Both the position numbers and the translations under genes were made by a program. A model generated the notes under the pieces. The model saw only the letters and a program-made list of their open reading frames with translations, had not been told where the DNA came from and did no database searches. A DNA stretch of 64,000 nucleotides from the human T2T-CHM13v2.0 reference genome, Homo sapiens. Where the stretch lies: assembly GCF_009914755.1 (NCBI RefSeq), contig NC_060929.1; one strand, written 5' to 3'. Positions 3,421 through 58,790 of this stretch are shown piece after piece. Every line of letters starts with the position of its first letter. Positions within the stretch are counted from its first letter, which is position 1.

Positions 3421-6400
3421 AATTCATTCCAAGTATATTTTCTAACCACATGGAATGGAACTAGAAATCAGTAACAGGAAGAAAATGGGAAAATACACAA
3501 ATCCATGGAAACTAAAAAACAATCTCTTGAAGAACCACTGAATCACTGTGGAAATCAAAAAAGAATTTAGAGTATCTTAAGAGAAACAAAAATAAAAACA
3601 GCAACCCAAATCTATGGAAAGCAGCAAAAGCAGTAATCAGAGAGAAGTTTATAGCAATAAGAGGCTATATTTAAAAGAGAGATTCCAATTAAGCAAACTA
3701 AACTTGATTTAACTTTAAGGAACTAGAAAAAGAACAAACTAAGTCCAAAGTGAATAGAAGAGATAATGACCATCAGAGCAAAAATAGATCAAATAGAGAA
3801 AAAAGTTTTTTAAAAAAGCACAGAAAAAAAATACAACTGGGTGTGTTTTTTTAAGATAAACAAAATAAACAAATACTTACCCAGATTAAATTTTAAAACA
3901 AGGAAGATGACACTCAAATACATAAAATAAAAAACGTATTACAGTGGAAATCTCAGAAATAAAAAGTAATAAGGGACTATTATGAACAATTATATGCCAA
4001 AAAGTTTGATAACATAGAATAAATGGATAAAATTCTAAAATCATACAAACTATCAAAACTGAATCAGGGAGAAATAGAAAGCCTGAATAGAAAAATAACA
4101 AATTAGGAGGTTGAATAAGCATTCATTCAAAATATCCTGAAAACAACAAAAAGCCTGGGACCTAACAGCCTCACAGCAAACATTCAAAAAATGAATATCA
4201 AGTCTCCTTAACTCTCCTAAAAAGTAAAATAAGAGGTAATACAAACACATTTTATGAGGCCAACTTCACCCTGATATCAAAGTCAGTCAAGACACCACAA
4301 GAAAAGAAACTATAGGCTAATATTTGTGAGAAATATTGTTGCAAATATTTCATGTAAAATTGATAACATTCAAAGGATTATACATCATGATCAAGTAAGA
4401 TGCAAGGATGCAAATCAATCAACATGATACAACACATTAATGAAATGAAAGAAAAGCCACATGGTCACCTTAATTGATGCAGGAAAAGTATTGGACAAAT
4501 TTCAACACCCATTTGTGAATTAAAATATCAACAAAATAAGTATAAAAGAATCTTATTTCAACACAAAGGCTACGTATGAAAAGCCCATAGTTAACATTAT
4601 AATCAATGGGAGAGAACTGAAAGCTTTCCCTGGAAGATTGGTACAATGCAAGGATGCCCACTCTCACCACTTCCTTTCACCATAGTATTAGAAATCCTAG
4701 CCCAAACAATTATGAAAGCGAAAGAAATAAAAAGCATTCAAATCAGAAAGTAAGATGTAAAAATGTCTCTGTTTGATGATAACATGATCATATATATAAA
4801 GAAAACCATAAAGACTCCAAAAATAAAACAAAAGAAAAACCTGTTAGAATTTAAAAATGAATTTAGTAAACTCACAAGATACAAAATCAACACACAAAAA
4901 TTAGTGGTGATTCTATACACAAACAACAAACTTTCCCAAAATCAAATTAAGAAAATAACTCTGTTCACAGTAGTAACAGAAGTAATGAAATACCTAGGAA
5001 TAAGCTTAACCAAAAAGGTGAAAGACTTGTACACTGAAAAATATAAAACATTGATATAAAGGAAATTAAAGAAAACACAAATAAATCAAAAGACATCCCA
5101 TGTTCAGGCACTGCAAGAAATAAGATTGTTAAAATGTCCATACTGCCCAAAGTAATCAACAAATTTAGTTCAATCCCTATCAAAACCCACATGGTATTCT
5201 TCTGAGAAATAAAAACAAAAAAAAAAGCTAAAATTCATATGGAATCATAAAAGACTTCAAATAGCAAAAGTAACCTTGAGCAAGAACAACAAAGCTGAAG
5301 GCATCATACTTTCTGATTTCAAGCTGTATTACCAAACTATAGCAATAAAAGTGTTTTAGCATTTAGACCAATGTTTTGACACTTAGACTGATGTAATAAA
5401 ATAGAAAGCCCAGAAATAAACTCAAGCACATACAGCCAAATAATGTTTTATAACAGTGCCAAGAACACAAGTAAGAAAGGAGAGTCTATTCAATAAATTG
5501 TGTTAGAAAAACAGGATATCTACATGCAGAAAAATGAAACTAGATCCTTACACCATATACAAAAATCAACTCAAAATGGATTAAAAACCTAAACATAAGA
5601 CCAGAAAAGGTAAAACTACTAGAAGAAATCATAGATGCAAAGCTCCATGACATTGGTCTGGCAATGATTTTTTGGATATGACCCCAAAGCACAGGCAACA
5701 GAAGCAAAAATGGACAAATAAGATTATATCAAACTATAAAGCTTCTGCACAGCAAACATCCAACAAAGTGAAGAGAAATGGGAGAATATATGTGCAAACC
5801 GTACATCTAGTAAAAGTTACTATCCAAAATATTTAAAGAACTCAAACAACTCATTAGGAAGAAAACATACCCCAATTTAAAAATGGACAAAAAACCTTAA
5901 TAGACATTTCTCAAAAGAAGACACAAAATGGTCAAAAATTATAGGAAAAAATGCTCAACCTCACTAATCATGAGGGAAATGAAAATTAAAGTAACATGAG
6001 ATACCACCTCACACCTGTTAGAATGTCTATCAAAAAGCTGATAGATGACACATGCTGTCAAGGATGTGGAGAAAAGGGAAAACTCTTATATTATGTTGGT
6101 GGGAATGTAAATTATTGTAGTCATTACGAAAATTAGTATGGAGGTTCCTCAGAAAATGAAAAATAGAATTACCGTATAAACCAGCAATCCCACTACTAGG
6201 TATGTATCCAAGGGAATTGAAATCAATATGTCAAAGAGCTATCTGCACTCACATGTTCACTGCAGCATCATCATGATAACCAAGATATGGAATCAACCTG
6301 TGTTCATCAACAGATGAGTAGATAAAGAAAATGTGGTACATGTACAAAATGAAATACTGTTCAGCCTTAAAACAGAAATAAATTATTTTATTTGCAACAA

Positions 6401-17592: not shown

Positions 17593-20228
17593 ATAAGAAT
17601 TGTAGATAATATGCTCAAAAGTCCTTTTGTCCTCAATGACATAAAAAATCTCCAAGGGCTTTTGCAGATTGGGGTGTTGGTGGTAGATGATAGGTAGGAG
17701 GCTTCATGCTCTATGGATTCTCTCTCTTATAGAAATTCCTACATTTGACCCACAATTTGATTATCCCCATAAAACCTAGAAACTTGGTATAAACAGCTGG
17801 CTTTCTCATGAATAGTGGACATTTTTTGTTTTCAGGCCCATGACACTATCTCAGCCTACTTGTACTTTTCATAGATAAGGTAAATATATACCACACATTA
17901 TTTGAGATTGTAGTGTAACACCATTATCTTACCAATATTCAGTTATATATAAAAAATTGCAATAATTTTACAGTTATATAGAAACAGTATTGAATAATTT
18001 GTTATTCTAAAGTTGCCTTTAATATTTTCTTTGTGTCGATACTAATGGTACATTCTTGAAATCTCATGCATAAGAAAAATAAAATATACAACTTCCTCAT
18101 AAATGTGTAGAAACAGTAATGCTCTTCTACAATACTATTACAATAACCCTGGTCAAAAATAACATTGTACTTTCAAGTTTGTCAGAATCTTCAACTCATT
18201 ATTGTTCTTGTTTTAGAATTTACACAAGAAATCTATCTTTAGATACTACCGGTTAACTTAAACAAATTTATTCTTAAATCAATGAGAACTATTTCAAGAC
18301 TTGGTCAGTAAGTGTTTTGTATATTCCTCTTCTTATATACACCATCCAGAAACAAAAATGGAAGCAAAAGCTAAATTTATTGTTTGAGATTGTCACTAGA
18401 ACATATTTATAGAAAAACAATACTACCATGAAATATACATTGCCTAGTTTATATATTAACTATTGAATTATTTCAAAATTAAATGTTTTGAATAAGAAAA
18501 TTGTCATTTATTCCAAATAAATATGATAAAAGAAATATTGAACTCTCTTAGTTTTTAATGTAACAACCTTTGGATAACCTATCTTGTTCAATTTTACTAT
18601 ATTATAAATTTAAAAATCATTCTACCTTCAATTCTCTATCTTATTAATGATAATCAATTAAATTCACAATATTAGTTATTTTTATATATGACTTAAAATA
18701 TTTTGACATTAAAATAACCCAATAGAAAAAAAGCTAGTTTATTTAATGTTTTCAAAGAAATTTTTATCATTTCAAACTACCTAATTGTCAATCTATTTGA
18801 AGTTAAGTAATGGTACAAATTTAGCCTTGCTATTTAATACTTTAACAATATAATGATTTTGCACACTATTCCAGGAATATAGGTTTAAATTATTCATAAA
18901 GGATAGTTTAATTCTAAAATGAATGGATAACTACACCTTATTTAACTGATGCTTGCATCTAATTATTTTGATATAGTTTCTTATTGGAAATGACTTTGGT
19001 TAACAGTAAATCGATTTTTCTCTCTATCATATGACAGACTATTTATCCTCCCTAACAAATACTTTTTTCAAGAAAAATAACTTATTTATAGTGACAAGAA
19101 GACATTTTCTATTTTATATGTAAAACTTTATCCCGCTGCATTTTACAATTTTAACACAGAGTAAAAAAGTTTGGTGAACCAGAATAGTGATGGGTCACCC
19201 TTAAAGGTATAGAATCATTATTATGTTAAATTTACTAAGTTTTTAAAAAGTTTTAATATTTAAAGACCCCAGAGATCAAGCAAAATGTATATAAAAGCTT
19301 TCTTTTGGTGCAGATCATTTTCATTACCTCTTCAAGTTAGTTATTATTGGTTTATAGAATGCTATTAATGCTTATATATTTATTGTTTTTATTTACTAAA
19401 TTCTTAAATATGTAATATGTTTTTATTGGCTATTTGGAATAATACAATTATTGTTACATTTTATATTTTATTCAGATATCTGTATTTTTTTGTGTTTCAT
19501 GCCTCACTTTTTTATTCATCAATTAGTTTGTTTTCAAAATAGAGAGAGAGAAAGCATGGATGATGTGCCAACCATTGCCCCAGTTTCTGGGAAGGAAGGA
19601 GTAGAAAAAATAACCACAGTCCTTGGTTCTTATGAAACCTTAAATCTAACAGGAAAAGTGGACATCTTACAAATTTAATTAATTCCAACTGACATAGTAT
19701 TATGAATACAAGTTTGTATAGAAGCATATGCTAGAGGACCAAGACATATGAAATTCTTATTACACAATTTACTTATAAGGCAAATAACTATAATAAGGGA
19801 AACACGGTAATAAAACAAGATATAGTTTTAAAAACTGCAGCTATTTCTGCTGAAGAAATTTTAATAATGTGAGAAACGAAGGACTTTAAAATAAAGGAGA
19901 CTTAGATAGCTCTCAATAGAAAATTATGTTCTCTCTGCCAAATGCCAAGGACATATCTAAAGTTTCTTGCATTGTAGCAGTAGAGGGAACAATTATACCC
20001 ATATAGTAATGGCAAGTTTTAACATAACTAAATATGAGCCATTATGTAGCATTTACACTACACTGATTTTTCATAATTTATGCAATGACAAATGGCAAGT
20101 AAAAAGGCTATTGTTGCTTAAATATAATTCTTGATGACTTTACACTTCTAAGTTTCAACTTTGATGGAGATCGAAAAATTTTTGTAACTCCCATATCAGC
20201 CATATCATAAAGAACTAGTGGTTTCAAT

Positions 20229-23200
20229 CAAAACATGACAGACTAGACGCAGCCAGGTGGAACAACTCCCAACGAAGGACCGAGACCACTGGCATGCTCC
20301 TAACAGATCTTCAGAGGGAAGGCACCGAGAGTGGATGGAGGGAAGACACAGAAACTGGGCTGAAGGGAGAAAGCTAGGAACCCTGCATGGGGCTACCACA
20401 CGCCAGGACTCATTCCTGGCCCACAACGGCAGGGGCAATGAGTGTGTTTAACTGACAATGAGCAATCTGCTCTCGCCATGGGCCTCTGGAACCCCAGCAA
20501 AAGGAGACCTCTCAATCACTGTGGACACTCTAGTTGCCAGGGGGCTGCTGAAAGAAATGGTAGGAGCAGCAAGCCAGGTGATGTAGAGCCCACAGGGTTT
20601 GGTGTGGGAGCATCCGTAGTGGAACAAAGATAGGGTCGGCCATCCATCTAGGCTCAACTTGCTCCCATAAGAGACTTTAGCCCTATGACAACTGTTGGAT
20701 CTCAACTTTGCCCTATGCCAACTGTTGGATCTCAATTTTGCAGGGTGGTCTTCCCCATCAGATGAGGCCGGTCCGACTTGAGCTCCCCTTGGTCTGCTGG
20801 CCTCTCCCAAGGCCCCAGCATACCCATGCCTGCTTGCTGGGCAATCTCAGGTTCCCTGGAGGCCTGCACTACACCAACTGCACTGACAGACCGTGCCTGA
20901 CTGGCAGAGAGTTTCAGCAAGGTAGCCCCTGTAGCCATGCACCAGCCCACACATTCCCTCCCTACACTGCAGCTTCCCCTGGGCCCACAGCAACTCCCCA
21001 CATCACTTTGCTGGCACATGTATGCAAGAGTGGGTTTTGATTTCCTTGCCCCACCAGTGTGCGGGAGTGCAGTCCGCCTCCCTTCCCACCGCCAAACTCT
21101 ATGGCAGACAGAGGCTTGGCTGTCACAGAGCCAGCCAGCCCCACACCTAACACCACCTGACCTTGGGCTAACAGTGCTCAGAGAACAGCAGATCCTTCCC
21201 CACGCAGAACGATCACTCCCTCTTGCAGGGCACAGAGAAGGCACTCAGACCTATGCCCACCAGCCCACCTCCGAGCCAACACCACTTTCAGTGCTACAAC
21301 ACACAGTCGCCAGCAGGGGCCCCCTGCACCCCAACTGGGTAGCCTCCACCACTATGGTGAACACCCTCAGGGAGCCAGGCACCCCAGCACCCACTAGAAC
21401 TCTGCTGTAGTTTCTTCTACTGCTGCTGTTGGCATGTACAAAGGAAGACAAATCCCATTGTCCCCACACTTCAAAATGCTTTGGCTGACACCACCCATCA
21501 GAATGGAGTGACTAGCAGTCTGGGAGCACCTCAGCTCTCCCAGCAAAGAGGATTTCTAACCTCAGTGAGCCAGACAACAAACTCAGGGCCCAATACAAGT
21601 CCCCGAGAGCTAAAGCATGCAGTCCGGGATTTGGGAACTGAGCATTGGCCTCCTAAAATCTTCCAGAAACAAAGCTAAGTTAGCTGAATCCACCCTATAC
21701 CACAATCAAAGCCTCAAGGTCATCAAATAGGATAAAAAAAAAATCCAAAGGTCAGCAGCCTCAAAGATTGAAGGTAGATAACCCCAAATGATGAGAAAGA
21801 ATCAGTGCAAGAAACCCGAAAACTCACAAAGCTAGAGTGCTTTCTTTCCTCCAACTACTCCAGGAAGAGTTCTGAACCAGGCTGAGATGGGCTGAAACAA
21901 CAAAAATAGAATTCAGAATATGGATAGGAACAAAGATCATTGAGCTACAGGAGTACCTTGAATCCCAATACAAGGAAGCTAAAAGTAATGGTAAAACAAT
22001 GCAGGAGCTCACCGACAAAATAGCCAGGAGAGAAAAGAATGTAAGCCCGATAGGGCTGAAAAACACACTATAAGAATTTCATAATCACAAGTATTAATAG
22101 CAGAATAGACCCAGTGGAAGAAAGAATCTCGGAGCTTGAAGACTGACTTTCTGAAATAAGACAGACAAGAAGAGAGGAAAAAAGAATGAAAAGGAACAAA
22201 CAAAACCTCTGATAAATATGAGATTATCCCAAATCTATAACATCATTGGTGTCCCTTAAAGAGATGGGAAGAAAGAAAGCAACTTGGAAAACATACTTTA
22301 GGATGTCATCTATAAGAACTTCCCGAGCCTAGTTAGAGAGGCCAACATTTTCACAAGAAGATCATCCCTAAGACACATAATCATCAGATTCACCTAGATC
22401 GAAATGAAACAATTTTAAAGGCAGCTAGAAAGAAAGATCAGGTCACCTACAAAGGTAAGCCCATCAGGATAACAGCAAACTTCTCAGCAAGTCAATAACT
22501 GTGATTCATCACATAAAAAGAACTGAAGAAAAAACTACATGATTATCTCAATAGATGCAGAAAAGGCTTTCTATAAAATTCAATACTCCATATTAAAAAC
22601 TCTCAGTAAACTAGGTATTGAAGGAACACACCTCATAATAAGAGCCATCTATGAGAGACCCACAGCCAACATCATACTAAATGGGCAAAAGTTGAAAGCA
22701 TTCCCCTTGAAAACCAGCACAATACAAGGATGCCCTCTCTCACCACTCCTATTCAACATAGTATTGGAAGTTCTGGCCATGGCAATCAGGCAAGAGAAAG
22801 AAATAAAGGGCTTCCAAAAAAGAGAGGAGGTCAAACTACCCGTTTGCAGACAGCATCATACTATATATAGAAAACCCCTTAGTCTGAGCCCAAAAGTTCT
22901 TTCAGCTGATAAACAATGTCAGCAAAGTCTCAGGATACAAAATCAATGTGCAAAAATCACTAACATTCCCATACACCAACAACAATCAAGCCAAGAACCA
23001 AATCAAGAACACAATCTCGTTCATAATTGCCACAAAAAGAATAAAAAACCTAGGAATACATCTAAGCAAGGAGGTGAAAGATCTCTACAAAGAGAACTAC
23101 AAAACATTGCTCAAAGAAATCAGAAATGAGACAAACAAATGGAAAACCATTCCATACTCATTCATAGGAAGAATACATATGGTTTAAATGGTCATACTGC

Positions 23201-24196
23201 CCAAAGCAATTTATAAATTCAATGCTAATCCTGTTAAACTGACATTGACATTCTTCACAGAACTAGAAAAAACTATGTTAAAATTCACATGGATCCAAAA
23301 AAGAGCCCGAATAGCCAAGGCAATGCTAAGCAACAGGACAAAAAAAGGCATCACACTACCCAAATTTATACTATACTACAGGGCTACAGTAACCAAAGCA
23401 GCATGTTATGGGTACAAAAAGAGACACATAGACCAATGGAACAGAATAGAGAACCCAGAAATCAGGCCACACACCTGGTTATCCATATGCAGAAGATTGA
23501 AACTGGAGCCCTTTCTCCTACCATATACAGATATTGACTCAAGATAGATTAAAGACTTTAACATAAAACCCAAAACTATAAAAACTCTGGAAGACAACCC
23601 AGGCAATATCACTCAGGACATAGGAATGGGCAAAGATTTCATGACGAAGACACCAAAAGCAATTGCAACACAAGCAAAAATTGACAAATGGGATGTAACT
23701 AAGCTAAAGAGCTTCTGCACAGCAAAATAATCTATCAACAGAATGAACAGAATCTACAGAATAAGAGAAAAATTGTGTGAACTATGATTCTGATAATGAT
23801 CTAATATCCAGCATCCATAAGGAATATAAACAAATTTACATGAAAAAAAAACCAAACGTGGCAAAAGATATGAACAGACACCTTTCAAAAGAAGACATAC
23901 ATGTGGTCAACAATCATATAAAAGAAGTTCAACATCGCTGATGATTAGGGAAATGCAAATCAAAATCATAATGAGATACCATCTCACACCAGTCAGAATG
24001 GCTATTATTAAAAAGTCAAAACATAAAAAATGCTGGCAAGTTTGCAGAGAGAAAGGAACACTGATACATTGTTCGTAAGAGTGCAAATTAGTTCAGCCAT
24101 CATGGAAGACAGTGTGGTGATTGCTCAAACATCTAAAAACAGAAATACCATCTGACCCAGCAATCTCATTACTGCGTATATACACAAAGGAATACA
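20229..24196 (+). mobile_element. Old primate L1 (L1PA13-16/L1P4-like): 5' UTR, partial ORF1 fused to mid-ORF2, no 3' UTR
   Basis: GC-rich 5' UTR (~20230-21700) and ORF1 remnant from ~21790. Jump to ORF2 at ~22489. RT peptides [11 protein letters not shown]...[18 protein letters not shown] and [11 protein letters not shown]. Confidence 0.93.
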
Positions 24197-24414
24197 TTTT
24201 CTGTTTATGTGAGGAATCACATTTATTGATATGCTGGGTGGTCTGCTGTTAGTCTGATGGGCTTCCCTTTGTAGGTGACCTGACCTTTCTCTCTAGCTGC
24301 CTTTAACATTCTTTCTTTTCTACCTAGGAGAATCTGATGATTATGCATCTTGGGGATCATCTTCTTGTGAAGTATCTTACTAGGGTTCTCTACATTTCCT
24401 GAATGTGAATGTTG
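24197..24414 (-). mobile_element. Inverted L1 fragment (ORF1 end plus the ORF1/ORF2 deletion junction)
   Basis: Minus-strand ORF contains MLKAAREKGQVTYKGKPIRLTAD (L1 ORF1p), followed by ORF2 sequence ATCAATAAATGTGATTCCTCACATAAACAG. Confidence 0.9.
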
Positions 24415-24989
24415 AATTATATACAAATAGGGGTGCCTGTTCTGCTGACAAACATTATCCAATAGCTTAGTCCAAGCTACCCTAGCCTTGTTTATTTGAT
24501 AATATGTTCCACTTATTGGACAAGAGCATATGATCAAAAATTAGCCAATTACAGGTCACAGTACCCTCAACCATTTGGCCTCAGTAACTACTTTCTAAAT
24601 GTCCCCAAATCCTGTCACTTCTGAGGCTACTTCTCCTGATATTGAATGCTGATATTTTGTTAGGTTTTATATTTGTAATTTTTATTTGTTTAATTAATTA
24701 GAGTAACGTTTTCATCACTTACAAATGAATCATAAGTAATACAGTGGTATATGATATAGAAAGTTAGTTTAGCATTATCTGAATCTTTCAAACAATATTA
24801 AATAAAAATAATGAAAATAGTAGCAAAATGATGATGTATATTCGTGAATTTAATACCTTCTTCTCCCACTCATTTAAATAATTAATAACAAAGCTATCAA
24901 ACAATAATCAGAAATAGAAACATAAAGATTTTATCTATTCAAATTGTTGATTAATAATATAATGCTCCTGAATATGTTTAAACACATTT

Positions 24990-26400
<1,411 letters not shown>

Positions 26401-26402
26401 TA

Positions 26403-26995
26403 TTGTTGTACAACTAAAGAAACCACAGATTGCTATCCAGGAAACTTCAAACCAAAAATGACTATAATAAATAATAATGCATTGTATATTTCAAAACTGC
26501 TAAAAGAATAGATTTCACATATTTTCATCATCAAAAATAGTAAGAATATGAGGCAATGGATTTGTTAATTAGCCTAACTTAATCACTGTATATTATAAAC
26601 ATATATCAAAACTTCACATTGTATCCCACAAATATATATGCTTATTATTTGTCAGTTACAAAGAAAACAAAAAACCTAAAGTCGTAAGAAGGTTACAGGC
26701 TCACCATTACAGAATGGCTTGTAAAGTGAATGTGAGAAAGTTGATTAACACTTTCAGTGACTGGTTACTACAGTGAAGTTTTCCCGATTGCAGTGGATTG
26801 GTTAGAAGTTATTATATTACTTGTGGAAGATGATTCAAGTTTTGTTTATGATTTTCAGAAGCATTTACAAGAAAGAATCTAAGTTTCCTTTATATGAAAA
26901 AAACCAAGCATGATTAAATTTTGCTTTTGTGGCCTAACTGGTTTTGTCTGCTCAGGGAACCCCTTGGCCTGATCTCTTTTCTATTTCATTTAACA
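26403..26995 (-). mobile_element. MER67-like ERV1 LTR, interrupted by an L1MA 3' end
   Basis: Reverse complement starts TGTTAAATGAAATAG...CCCTGAGCAGACAAAACCAGTTAGGCC. Confidence 0.65.
26455..26675 (+). mobile_element. L1MA 3' end (short, 5'-truncated)
   Basis: ATTGTATATTTCAAAACTGCTAAAAGAATAG...GTTAATTAGCC...TTATTTGTCAGTT followed by an A-rich tail. Confidence 0.85.
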
Positions 26996-27059
26996 CACTT
27001 AAAGAATAGATTGTATATAGCAGAGGGGAGAAGAAAATCTTTAATCAATGCAAAATATT

Positions 27060-27730
27060 TCAAAGTTACAGAAAAAGAAACAAAATGCAGATACTTAAAA
27101 GCACACAAATAGATGGCAAAAAGAAAAAAACATAATCAGAAAATGTACAAGTGTTAAAGCCTTCTGTTAAGGGACATATGATTGGATATAAAAAATACAC
27201 ATATAGATAATTTTCAAAATCCTAACAATAACAATTGCTGATGAGGTTGCAGAACACCATGAATTCTTCATTTATTGTGGTAGGAATGCAAAATAGTACA
27301 GACAATCTGGAAGATAGTTGGAAATTTCTTACAAAGCTAAACATAGTTTATCATAAGATTCAGTAATTATGTTTCTACATCTTTACCTAAATGATTTAAA
27401 TGTCTGTGTCCCTACAAAAACCAGGATACACATTCATTCATAATCATAATAAATTGGAAGGAATTAAGATAGCCTTTCACTGGATGGATAAACAAACTAG
27501 TACATTTATACAGTTTGATACTATTAAATAATAAAAAAGAATAAAATAATAATAAAAAATAAAATAAAAAATAATAAAAAAACCATCAAGTCATGTTAAG
27601 ACATGGATAAATGATAGATCATATTACTGCCTGAAAAAAGCCAATCTAATTATATATATAATATATATATAATTTAAATATAATTTATATAAAATATATA
27701 TATTTATATTGTATGAATCCTTTAACATAT
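27060..27730 (+). mobile_element. L1MC/MD-type 3' fragment
   Basis: TTGCTGATGAGGTTGCAG...GTAGGAATGCAAAATAGTACAG...AAAAAAGCCAATCT. Confidence 0.7.
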
Positions 27731-27862
<132 letters not shown>

Positions 27863-28576
27863 TTAAGTAATTCAGTACGTTTTGTAGGATTCCTGAAGGC
27901 TGAAGCAATGTTATCTATCTTTGCTTCTCCTTTACCACTCCTTGCATCTCTGTTTTGTCATCAATATCATGTTGCTGTATGATCAGTTGACACAAAGCAT
28001 TTAAAGGAAGAGACACATATGTGATTAGAGTCCCTATACTCAATGAATTATAGTTAAATTATTAAAGTTGCAAAAGACTGCAAACAGGAATCTGCCGCTA
28101 CTTTGCACCAAGATCCTAAACATGTTACTGATTTCCTTAAACTGAATTTTTTCATTTGTTAATTGGAAGTAACAAAGACATTTAATTCTTTCCCAAGGCT
28201 CTAAAGTTATAATTAAATAATAAACCAAAAATAAATAAAGGATAGATGTGAAAATGCTTCAAACACAATTAATAATAAAGCACTTGTTTACTGTGATGTA
28301 AGCTCGACAGCCAGCCATAGTTGCCACTTTTGCACTCGTCTTTGAGGCTCCCTGGAGTTTTAGCAAGTACAGGCTGTGTCCTTCTTGATGGAGCATTCTT
28401 CACACTGCAGGGTCCTTGCCAGGTCCATTTTACAACTTTGGTTTTAAATATATGGCAGAAATTTTCACATACTATTTTAGACAATCGGTTATAGAATATT
28501 TTGCTCACAAATAATTCCTGATATATTTCTTATATAAGATTAACTATGACATTATAATCATATCCCATGCTTCAGC

Positions 28577-28730
28577 TATATGTATAAAAGCATATGTATA
28601 TGTATATTTGTATATAAGCGTGTGTATCTACATGTTTGTGTATGTGTATATAGATAAATGTGTATCTATCATCTCTGTGTGTGTGTATATATATATATAC
28701 ACACATATATGTATATATGTATATATACAT
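28577..28730. repeat. (TA)/(TG)/(CA) low-complexity repeat
   Basis: Direct reading. Confidence 0.85.
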
Positions 28731-57609: not shown

Positions 57610-58790
57610 TTGACACTGTGAAATCTAGGGGTTGAGGGCCAAGAGCTCTTTCAGTCCTCCAATGTTGTTAAGGTGCTTGCCTTATTCAGAGAAACAGAGC
57701 TGTCAGAGTAGCGGACTGGAAATTCTGGCAAGAGGTGATCTCGTAGTCTTAAATCCAAGGATAGTCTGGAGGCAGAATTCCATCCTCTTTGAGAGACTTC
57801 AACCTTTTTTCTTAAGGCCTTTAACTGATTGGATTAAGCTCATTCACATTATTGAGGATAATCTGCTTTACAGAAAGTCAACTGATTAAAATGTTAATCA
57901 TATAAAAAAACCTTCTTATTCCAGTCTATCATTGTTGGACATTTGGCTTGGTTCCAAGTCTTTGCTATTGTGAATAGTGCCGCAATAAACATACATGTGC
58001 ATGTGTCTTTATAGCAGCATGATTTATAATCCTTTGGGTAAACACCCAGTAATGGAATTGCTGGGTCAAATGGTATTTCTATTTCAAGATCCCTGAGGAA
58101 TCGCCACACTGACTTCCACAATGGTTGAACTAGTTTACAGTACCACCAACAATGTAAAAGTTTTCCTATTTCTCCACATCCTCCAGCACCTGTTGTTTCC
58201 TGACTGATCGCCATTCTAACTGGTGTGAGATGATCACCATTCTAACTGGTGTGAGATGGTATCTCACTGTGGTTTTGATTTGCATTTCTCTGATGGCCAG
58301 TGATGATGAGCATTTTTTCATGTGATGTGACACATATACACCATGGAATACTATGCAGCCATAAAAATGATGAGTTCATGTCCTTTGCAGGGACATGGAT
58401 GAAGGTGGAAACCATCATTCTCAGCAAACTATCGCAAGGACAACAAACCAAACACCTCATGTTCTCACTCATAGGTGGGATTGAACAATGAGAACACATG
58501 GACACAGGAAGGGGAACATCACACATCAGGGCCTGTTGTGGGGTGGGGGGAGGGGGGAGGGATAGCATTAGGAGATATACCTAATGTTAAATGAGGAGTT
58601 GATGGGTGCAGCACACCAGCATGGCACATGTATACATATGTAAGTAACTTGCACATTGTGCACATGTACCCTAAAACTTAAAGTATAATAATAATAATAA
58701 AAACAATTTCACAGCAACATCTAGGCTGATCTTAGACCAAGCAACTGGGCATGAAGCCTAGCCATGCTGACACATAAAATTAACCTCTGA
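57610..58790 (-). mobile_element. MLT2 (MLT2D-like) LTR split by an L1PA insertion
   Basis: TCTGGAGGCAGAATTCC...AACTGATTGGAT...GAGGATAATCTGCTTTAC [L1] TTCACAGCAACATCTAGGCTG...TGACACATAAAATTAACC. Confidence 0.85.
57913..58705 (+). mobile_element. L1PA3/4-like element with a 5' inversion (57913-58324 minus, 58325-58705 plus)
   Basis: The minus arm encodes the ORF2 C-terminus (LVQPLWKSVWRFLRDLE). The plus arm continues ATGTGACACATATACACC through the 3' UTR and a (TAA)n tail. Confidence 0.95.

What the first reader, a model, noticed from the sequence alone, without database searches (positions are those of the whole stretch)
22340..24414. Same ~2 kb ORF1-to-ORF2 deletion junction in two diverged, inverted L1 copies
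Seen: the + copy reads ...AACAGCAAACTTCTCAGCA|AGTCAATAACTGTGATTCATCACATAAA (~22489). The minus copy reads ...AACAGCAGACCACCCAGCA|TATCAATAAATGTGATTCCTCACATAAAC (~24232). Both jump from the ORF1 RLTAD region to ORF2 just upstream of [11 protein letters not shown], at a GCA microhomology with no GT-AG ends. The copies differ at many positions, and the minus copy keeps ~35 bp that are missing from the + copy at ~22349. Known: this deletion removes the ORF1 C-terminus and the ORF2 endonuclease. Inference: the junction predates both copies. Either an internally deleted, non-autonomous L1 lineage was mobilised in trans despite L1 cis-preference, or an old fold-back/template-switch duplication occurred here and also removed the 3' UTR (the + copy ends exactly where the inverted piece starts).
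Basis: partly seen in the sequence, partly recalled or inferred. Interest (0 to 1): 0.75.

Follow-up and report, generated by a model that had tools for sequence, protein, structure and literature searches.

The report
Old L1 with private fold-back duplication
One old, dead L1 retrotransposon lost 2 kb from its middle and ends in a 216-base inverted copy of its own deletion junction; the junction turned up nowhere else in the genome, so this is a one-off local rearrangement, likely made by a DNA end folding back on itself, and not a new mobile-element family.

Summary
A near-full-length old L1PA element (20232-24196, +) lacks about 2.05 kb between ORF1 and the RT region and about 0.5 kb of its 3' end. 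In place of the tail is a 216-bp inverted copy (24199-24414) of its own junction region, 1,676 bp from the template. Genome-wide searches found the junction only at these two sites; the unjoined ORF1 control gave 7,999 hits. The two copies also share a private substitution and a rare 4-bp deletion, so one was copied from the other. They differ as much as unrelated copies do, so the copy is about as old as the insertion. Splicing and twin priming are excluded by junction ends and orientation. Best explanation: fold-back or template-switch copying at a DNA end, at or soon after integration, a known kind of event. Three weak clues (possible decayed target-site duplication, a cluster of small deletions, coinciding breakpoints) leave open that L1 integration itself made it. 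A side lead elsewhere: about 40 dispersed L1 copies share an ORF1 frameshift.

The parts
20232..21787 (+). L1 5' UTR of an older L1PA subfamily; the G-rich first ~10 nt seen in most relatives are absent
   Evidence: 70-74% identical over nearly its whole length to the top genomic relatives; 13.1% from the relatives' majority; 5' ends compared
21788..22489 (+). ORF1, broken, cut after the RITANFSA motif; six deletions of 12, 5, 4, 8, 36 and 4 bp
22343..22350 (+). Site of the 36-bp deletion (after 22349); its left edge lies 7 nt from the point where the inverted copy ends
22487..22490 (+). ORF1-to-ORF2 deletion junction, about 2.05 kb lost, 3-nt overlap, out of frame
22490..24196 (+). ORF2 remnant from inside the RT domain to near the C-terminus; an 84-bp deletion after about 23474 with a 2-nt overlap
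   Evidence: RVT_1 E 4e-10, profile 70-145; deletion 82-85 bp against 13 relatives
24197..24198 (.). Fold-back junction: two T bases between the sense ORF2 end and the inverted arm; overlap not resolvable; about 0.5 kb of ORF2 end, 3' UTR and poly(A) missing
   Evidence: junction pattern has 1 match in the genome
24199..24414 (-). 216-bp inverted copy of the junction region: 183 nt of ORF1 (with the 36 bp) and 33 nt of ORF2
20207..20222 (+). Left member of a possible decayed target-site duplication (not established)
   Evidence: 12 of 16 match to 24419-24434; null 0.007-0.12 by scoring
24419..24434 (+). Right member of the possible target-site duplication, 4 nt after the inverted arm

Best explanation
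This is a single old L1 insertion whose 2-kb deletion junction was copied locally into a 216-bp inverted arm that stands where the L1 tail should be, likely because a DNA end near the end of ORF2 folded back or switched template onto the element's own DNA at or soon after integration. Shown: the structure (5' part, junction, ORF2 remnant, inverted junction copy, flank), its uniqueness in this genome, the common origin of the two arms and their age relative to the insertion. Inferred: a break or stalled strand at about 24196; about 1.7 kb of the opposite strand removed or unpaired; the free end joined to or primed at 22522; 216 nt copied or peeled off; end-joining to the right flank with loss of about 0.5 kb. 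The 2-kb deletion, one substitution and the 4-bp deletion were already in the template. The 36-bp loss came in the same episode or later; if the same, the two arms are the two strands of one duplex laid end to end through a hairpin. The product encodes nothing and has no likely function.
For: Junction only at the two window sites: 2 matches each for two patterns with up to 3 mismatches, and 2 of 40 scored DNA candidates span it, against 7,999 for the unjoined control. Shared derived states: a T at 22395/24326 where 17 of 17 relatives have A, and a 4-bp deletion; of 27 genomic loci with the 4-bp-short form only these two carry the T. In 173 columns: 1 shared, 15 +-private, 8 --private, 1 both different, so the copy was made after an estimated 8% of the element's residence (95% interval 0.2-34%). 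Geometry matches published fold-backs: spacer 1,676 bp against 766-70,466 bp in PMC3907307; fold-back copy then end-joining to the other end in PMC11724301.
Against: No clear inverted microhomology at the fold-back junction: an imperfect match lies about 5 nt beyond the break in relatives but the sequence that would have to be kept is not there. A simple fold-back from the right does not explain the six small deletions in the + copy's ORF1 (0-3 in 16 relatives; Poisson 0.0014, post hoc), nor a target-site duplication right after the arm if that is real. The arm is longer and further from its template than the yeast fold-backs (most 5-34 bp) or the insertions sought in PMC8421209 (template within 100 bp). 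0 of 20 relatives show a self-copied inverted arm, so the event is uncommon. Genome searches cover one assembly only.
Confidence: 0.6

Rival explanations
1. The whole structure was made by L1's own integration reaction: reverse transcriptase skipped 84 bp, 2 kb and several short stretches, and part of the first cDNA strand ended up joined in series behind the second strand, giving a tail-less, tail-to-tail insert between target-site duplications.
For: Early timing (likelihood of 1 shared change 0.12-0.37 if made at insertion against 0.07 if the date is uniform). Possible target-site duplication at the expected places. Cluster of small deletions on the side synthesised after the 2-kb jump. Outer end of the arm 7 nt from the 36-bp deletion edge (chance about 1.5-7%, post hoc). 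PMC11702581 reports template switches, fold-backs and tail-to-tail inserts from L1 activity in cells (passages).
Against: No poly(A). With log-odds scoring the duplication match is reached by 8-11% of random positions (64 and 91 of 800), and 4 of its 5 mismatches are transversions; four relatives keep much cleaner duplications (12-14 of 14). The arm keeps the 36 bp, so one synthesis pass cannot have made everything. At least 6 of 20 relatives have deletions over 500 bp, so the big deletion needs no special cause.
Confidence: 0.25
2. Stepwise, unrelated events after insertion: a deletion, then an inversion with staggered breaks or a replication template switch, then a flip between the arms and separate small deletions.
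For: Staggered-break inversion followed by a flip would give the same order of segments (inference). Large deletions are common in this family.
Against: Needs several rare events inside the first third of the element's residence and leaves the coinciding breakpoints to chance.
Confidence: 0.1
3. A non-autonomous, internally deleted L1 lineage was mobilised in trans and two of its copies landed side by side.
For: Two copies 14% apart carry the same junction. Old copies can be missed: single-copy detection about 0.68 at 9.5% divergence without indels; 6 of 7 scorable relatives would have been caught if they had the junction, 13 of 20 could not be scored.
Against: No carrier outside the window; the one hit of a gapped exact pattern is an ORF2 piece with no ORF1 upstream. 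The - piece is 216 bp, has no tail or duplication of its own and abuts the + copy.
Confidence: 0.03
4. Twin priming or a spliced L1 RNA made the structure.
For: Twin priming gives inverted L1 pieces (PMC2912911 passage); spliced L1 RNAs do retrotranspose (PMC5860796 passages).
Against: Twin priming inverts the 5' part and keeps the poly(A) end; here the 3' ends meet and the tail is gone. The deleted stretch starts GA and ends CA in most relatives, and no shift within the overlap gives GT-AG, GC-AG or AT-AC on either strand.
Confidence: 0.02

Closest known systems
Local fold-back inverted insertions at double-strand breaks (yeast; PMC11724301, abstract and Results part 1 of 3 read)
   Same: A broken end copies its own neighbourhood in reverse, then is end-joined to the other side.
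   Different: There most are 5-34 bp (up to over 150) with a 41-nt loop and a 10-bp imperfect inverted match; here 216 bp, a 1,676-nt spacer, no clear match, and 0.5 kb lost.
Human inverted duplications with a single-copy spacer (PMC3907307, passages read)
   Same: Deletion next to an inverted duplication, separated by a kb-sized spacer; some junctions have short insertions instead of microhomology.
   Different: Those are large terminal rearrangements through a dicentric chromosome; this one is 216 bp, interstitial and fixed or at least carried in the reference.
MMBIR-type templated insertions in the human germline (PMC8421209, passages read)
   Same: Inverted copy of a nearby template, found as germline variants, can be complex.
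   Different: That survey looked for templates within 100 bp; here the template is 1.7 kb away and the event is tens of millions of years old (age from recall of L1PA chronology).
L1-induced fold-backs and template switches (PMC11702581, passages read)
   Same: L1 integration intermediates can self-anneal, switch template and give tail-to-tail inserts.
   Different: Those carry poly(A) or endonuclease-site marks and mostly give large copy-number changes; I saw no case there of this exact layout in the passages shown.
Twin-primed (5'-inverted) L1 (PMC2912911, passage read)
   Same: An L1 with an inverted piece of itself.
   Different: Opposite geometry; poly(A) end is kept in twin priming and lost here.
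SpIREs and HAL1 (PMC5860796, PMC5753468, passages read)
   Same: Internally shortened L1 forms.
   Different: These recur at many loci (116 for one SpIRE) or form families; SpIREs use splice sites. This junction is private and has no splice ends.

Membership tests
Non-autonomous L1 family (HAL1-like) | Same lesion at many dispersed loci with different flanks | tested here: not met
   2 matches, both in the window; 2 of 40 scored candidates; control 7,999
Non-autonomous L1 family (HAL1-like) | Each copy has its own 3' tail and target-site duplication | tested here: not met
   Neither piece has a tail; the - piece is a 216-bp internal fragment
Non-autonomous L1 family (HAL1-like) | Junction present in a curated Dfam/Repbase consensus | not testable with these tools
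   No repeat library is held; with two carriers in the genome a consensus is unlikely to hold it (inference)
SpIRE (spliced L1 retrocopy) | Splice donor and acceptor at the ends of the missing stretch | tested here: not met
   Ends read from 13 relatives: mostly GA...CA; no canonical pair at any shift within the overlap
Twin-primed L1 | Inverted 5' piece head-to-head with a sense 3' piece that keeps poly(A) | tested here: not met
   Arms are tail-to-tail and the 3' end is missing
Fold-back / templated inverted duplication | Inverted copy of a local template, separated by a single-copy spacer | tested here: met
Fold-back / templated inverted duplication | Inverted microhomology (or a short insertion) at the turn | tested here: inconclusive
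   Two extra T bases, or a short deletion and a blunt join; an imperfect match lies about 5 nt past the break
Product of L1 integration (TPRT) | Target-site duplication around the whole structure | tested here: inconclusive
   12 of 16; null 10 of 1500, 180 of 1500, 91 of 800, 64 of 800 by scoring
Product of L1 integration (TPRT) | Poly(A) tail | tested here: not met
L1PA16 or L1PA17 subfamily | Match to published subfamily-selective ORF2 primers (PMC12432230 Table 1) | tested here: not met
   Relatives differ from the L1PA16 forward primer at 4-6 of 20 places at the homologous site; the window copy differs from the L1PA17 primers at 3 and 7. L1PA13-15 is my inference from about 9-10% divergence and recall

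The most novel reading that the evidence does not exclude
The locus is a fossil of one aberrant L1 integration in which both strands of the new cDNA duplex were laid end to end through a hairpin: a tail-less, tail-to-tail L1 between target-site duplications, with the inverted arm being first-strand cDNA released next to a 36-nt loop that the second strand skipped. It would be a germline record of an integration outcome outside the standard full-length, truncated and twin-primed classes.
Probability: 0.2. Interest if true: 0.45.

Novelty: new member of a known kind. Interest (0 to 1): 0.2.

Why it matters
As a private fold-back duplication in a dead L1 it matters little: one more old complex rearrangement, 11 kb from the nearest predicted lncRNA exon, with no coding potential. 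If primate orthologs showed that integration itself made it, it would be a rare natural example bearing on how L1 second-strand synthesis is resolved, which is still open (PMC11702581, discussion passage).

Tried and rejected
Family: rejected. Segmental duplication of the locus: the left flank has 1 match, itself, and the right flank only itself plus 4 short repeat-like hits. Missing 3' end relocated nearby: no match of five relatives to 24420-28600 other than Alu; L1 3' pieces at 56-58 kb and 4-6 kb were not tied to this element. The flanks gave no older repeat spanning the site, so loss of flank DNA could not be measured. Shared 4-bp deletion inherited from a source lineage: a sister lineage does carry it, but the window element lacks that lineage's diagnostic bases. 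Inverted L1 pieces in L003, L016, L022 as parallels: they are 74-82% identical to their own sense copies, no closer than to other relatives, so they are separate insertions. Local hairpin at the fold-back junction: z -0.98. In-frame ORF1-ORF2 fusion: no. A tree of carriers was not built: there are only two. Khan et al. 2006 was not held, so ages are from recall. Seven literature searches listed nothing on this locus or on the frameshifted lineage; they were by mechanism terms, not coordinates, and supplements were not read.

Full report
Observation. The window holds an L1 from about 20232 to 24196 on the + strand, followed by an inverted L1 piece at 24199-24414. The repeat finder gives ungapped arms 22350-22522 and 24199-24371, 173 nt, 86% complementary, 1,676 nt apart. 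Both arms pass from ORF1 straight into ORF2 at a 3-nt GCA overlap.

Reference set. A genome search with the 5' UTR scored 40 of 1,695 candidates; I fetched the top 20 with about 8.5 kb each. Against them the deletion is 1,989-2,105 bp in the 8 relatives undisturbed at that place. In relative L020 the missing stretch holds the ORF1 C-terminal domain (PF17490, E 3e-32), endonuclease residues (PF14529, E 0.035, below cut-off) and the start of RVT_1; the window's RVT_1 match begins at profile position 70. The join is out of frame. The + copy also lacks 84 bp after about 23474 (13 relatives) and about 0.5 kb of 3' end (measured on one relative, L003). It is 9-11% from the relatives' majority in the ORFs and 13% in the UTR, like the relatives themselves. 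Published L1PA16 and L1PA17 primers do not fit; L1PA13-15, roughly 50-70 million years, is my inference and recall.

Is it a family? A 35-nt and a 30-nt junction pattern, each with up to 3 mismatches, gave 2 matches, both in the window. The same ORF1 half with its normal continuation gave 7,999. A DNA search with 141 nt across the junction scored 40 of 1,497 candidates: 2 span the junction, 38 match only the ORF2 side. A gapped exact pattern, too strict to hit even the window copies, gave 1 locus on chromosome 7, an ORF2 piece with no ORF1 upstream. Sensitivity per copy is about 0.68 without indels; 6 of 7 scorable relatives would have been caught, 13 of 20 were unscorable. A family of more than about four copies is therefore very unlikely. 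The flanks are single-copy, and the second junction is unique too.

Are the arms one copied from the other? Besides the junction they share a T where 17 of 17 relatives have A and a 4-bp deletion. Of 27 loci with the 4-bp-short form only these two have the T; within their own lineage the short form is about 1 in 44 exact matches. So they come from one molecule. Yet 24 of 173 columns differ: 15 private to +, 8 private to -, 1 both (three columns near an A-run are alignment-dependent; 15 against 8 is not significant, P 0.21). The arms are 86.4% identical over the ORF1 part, no more than the - arm is to its best relatives, 86.9 and 86.8%. The copy was made after an estimated 8% of the element's residence, interval 0.2-34%.

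How common is this? At least 6 of 20 relatives have internal deletions over 500 bp (read from the maps), so the deletion is ordinary. None of the 20 has a self-copied inverted arm; three inverted pieces proved to be separate L1s.

Mechanism. Call the segments A (to 22349), B (36 bp), C (22350-22522), D (to 24196), E (lost tail), F (flank). The locus reads A C D, then C and B inverted, then F. Twin priming gives the opposite geometry and keeps poly(A). Splicing fails on the ends of the missing stretch. A free end after D that turns back onto C, copies or peels off C and B, and is joined to F explains the order; this is the fold-back described in yeast and, at larger scale with spacers of 766-70,466 bp, in humans. 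The turn itself is ambiguous: two T bases, with an imperfect inverted match about 5 nt further on in relatives. These steps are inferred.

Clues to a single early episode, each weak. First, the arm's outer end lies 7 nt from the left edge of the 36-bp deletion (chance about 1.5-7% on a rough uniform model, post hoc); a hairpin joining both strands of one duplex would predict this. Second, the + copy's ORF1 part has 6 deletions of 4 bp or more against 0-3 in 16 relatives (Poisson 0.0014, one of four regions looked at; one of the six is a recurrent hot spot), while its other regions have 0, 1 and 1. Third, 20207-20222 and 24419-24434 match at 12 of 16, at the places a target-site duplication would occupy; random positions reach the score in 10 of 1500 or 180 of 1500 trials with simple scores and 64-91 of 800 with log-odds scores, and 4 of 5 mismatches in the 19-nt version are transversions. 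Together they keep an integration-time origin alive (0.25) but do not show it. L1 activity in cells does yield template switches and fold-backs.

Literature seen: passages of PMC11702581, PMC3907307, PMC5860796, PMC12432230, PMC5753468, PMC1914374, PMC2912911 and PMC8421209; abstract and the first third of Results of PMC11724301; search listings only for the rest. No supplements were read; locus lists in them could include this site.

Side lead. Testing the 4-bp deletion exposed a sister lineage elsewhere: 42 loci match the short form with up to 3 mismatches. 22 of 25 non-window short-form loci carry one linked variant against 10 of 53 long-form exact matches (Fisher 6e-9). Five fetched carriers share further diagnostic bases, are 77-82% identical to each other, and read into a stop right after the site; two checked share a 5' UTR unlike the window's; 1 of 4 long-form loci checked belongs to the same lineage with an open frame. 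This looks like many insertions from a source with a broken ORF1. Flanks, tails and Dfam status were not checked.

Verdict. Real, private, locally copied, old. A new instance of a known kind of rearrangement. Interest 0.2.

Noticed in passing
G000:C14:33731489, C2:84363830, C8:60764456, C18:8693904, C7:11630995 (L024-L028) and about 35 more loci: A sister L1 sub-lineage with its own 5' UTR whose dispersed copies share a 4-bp ORF1 deletion that gives an immediate stop, plus linked diagnostic bases (Fisher 6e-9). It may be a lineage mobilised in trans from a source with a broken ORF1; not checked against Dfam.
   Followed up: partly
window 20677-20736: A 30-bp tandem duplication in the 5' UTR, 90% identical, absent from most relatives.
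   Followed up: no
L003 (G000:C11:124531500-124540000), oriented positions 4595-6080: An inverted 1.1-kb ORF2 piece followed by a short sense 3' end and A-rich tail inside the older L1: looks like a twin-primed younger L1 inserted into it.
   Followed up: partly
L012 (G000:C3:26828900-26837500), about 3660-3710: The L1 match stops early in ORF2, yet an L1-like A-rich end and a perfect 14-bp target-site duplication follow at once: a deletion of nearly 3 kb that spared the very end.
   Followed up: no
L003, L008, L015, L017, L019, L022: At least 6 of 20 near-full-length relatives carry internal deletions over 500 bp, each at its own place.
   Followed up: partly
window about 25150-25660: A faint older L1-like stretch in the right flank, with 4 short genomic matches; its identity as an L1M ORF1 remnant is from recall.
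   Followed up: no
window 57913-58703: L1 pieces in opposite orientations meet near 58325, 91-97% identical to a young L1 piece in L021: probably a twin-primed younger L1.
   Followed up: no
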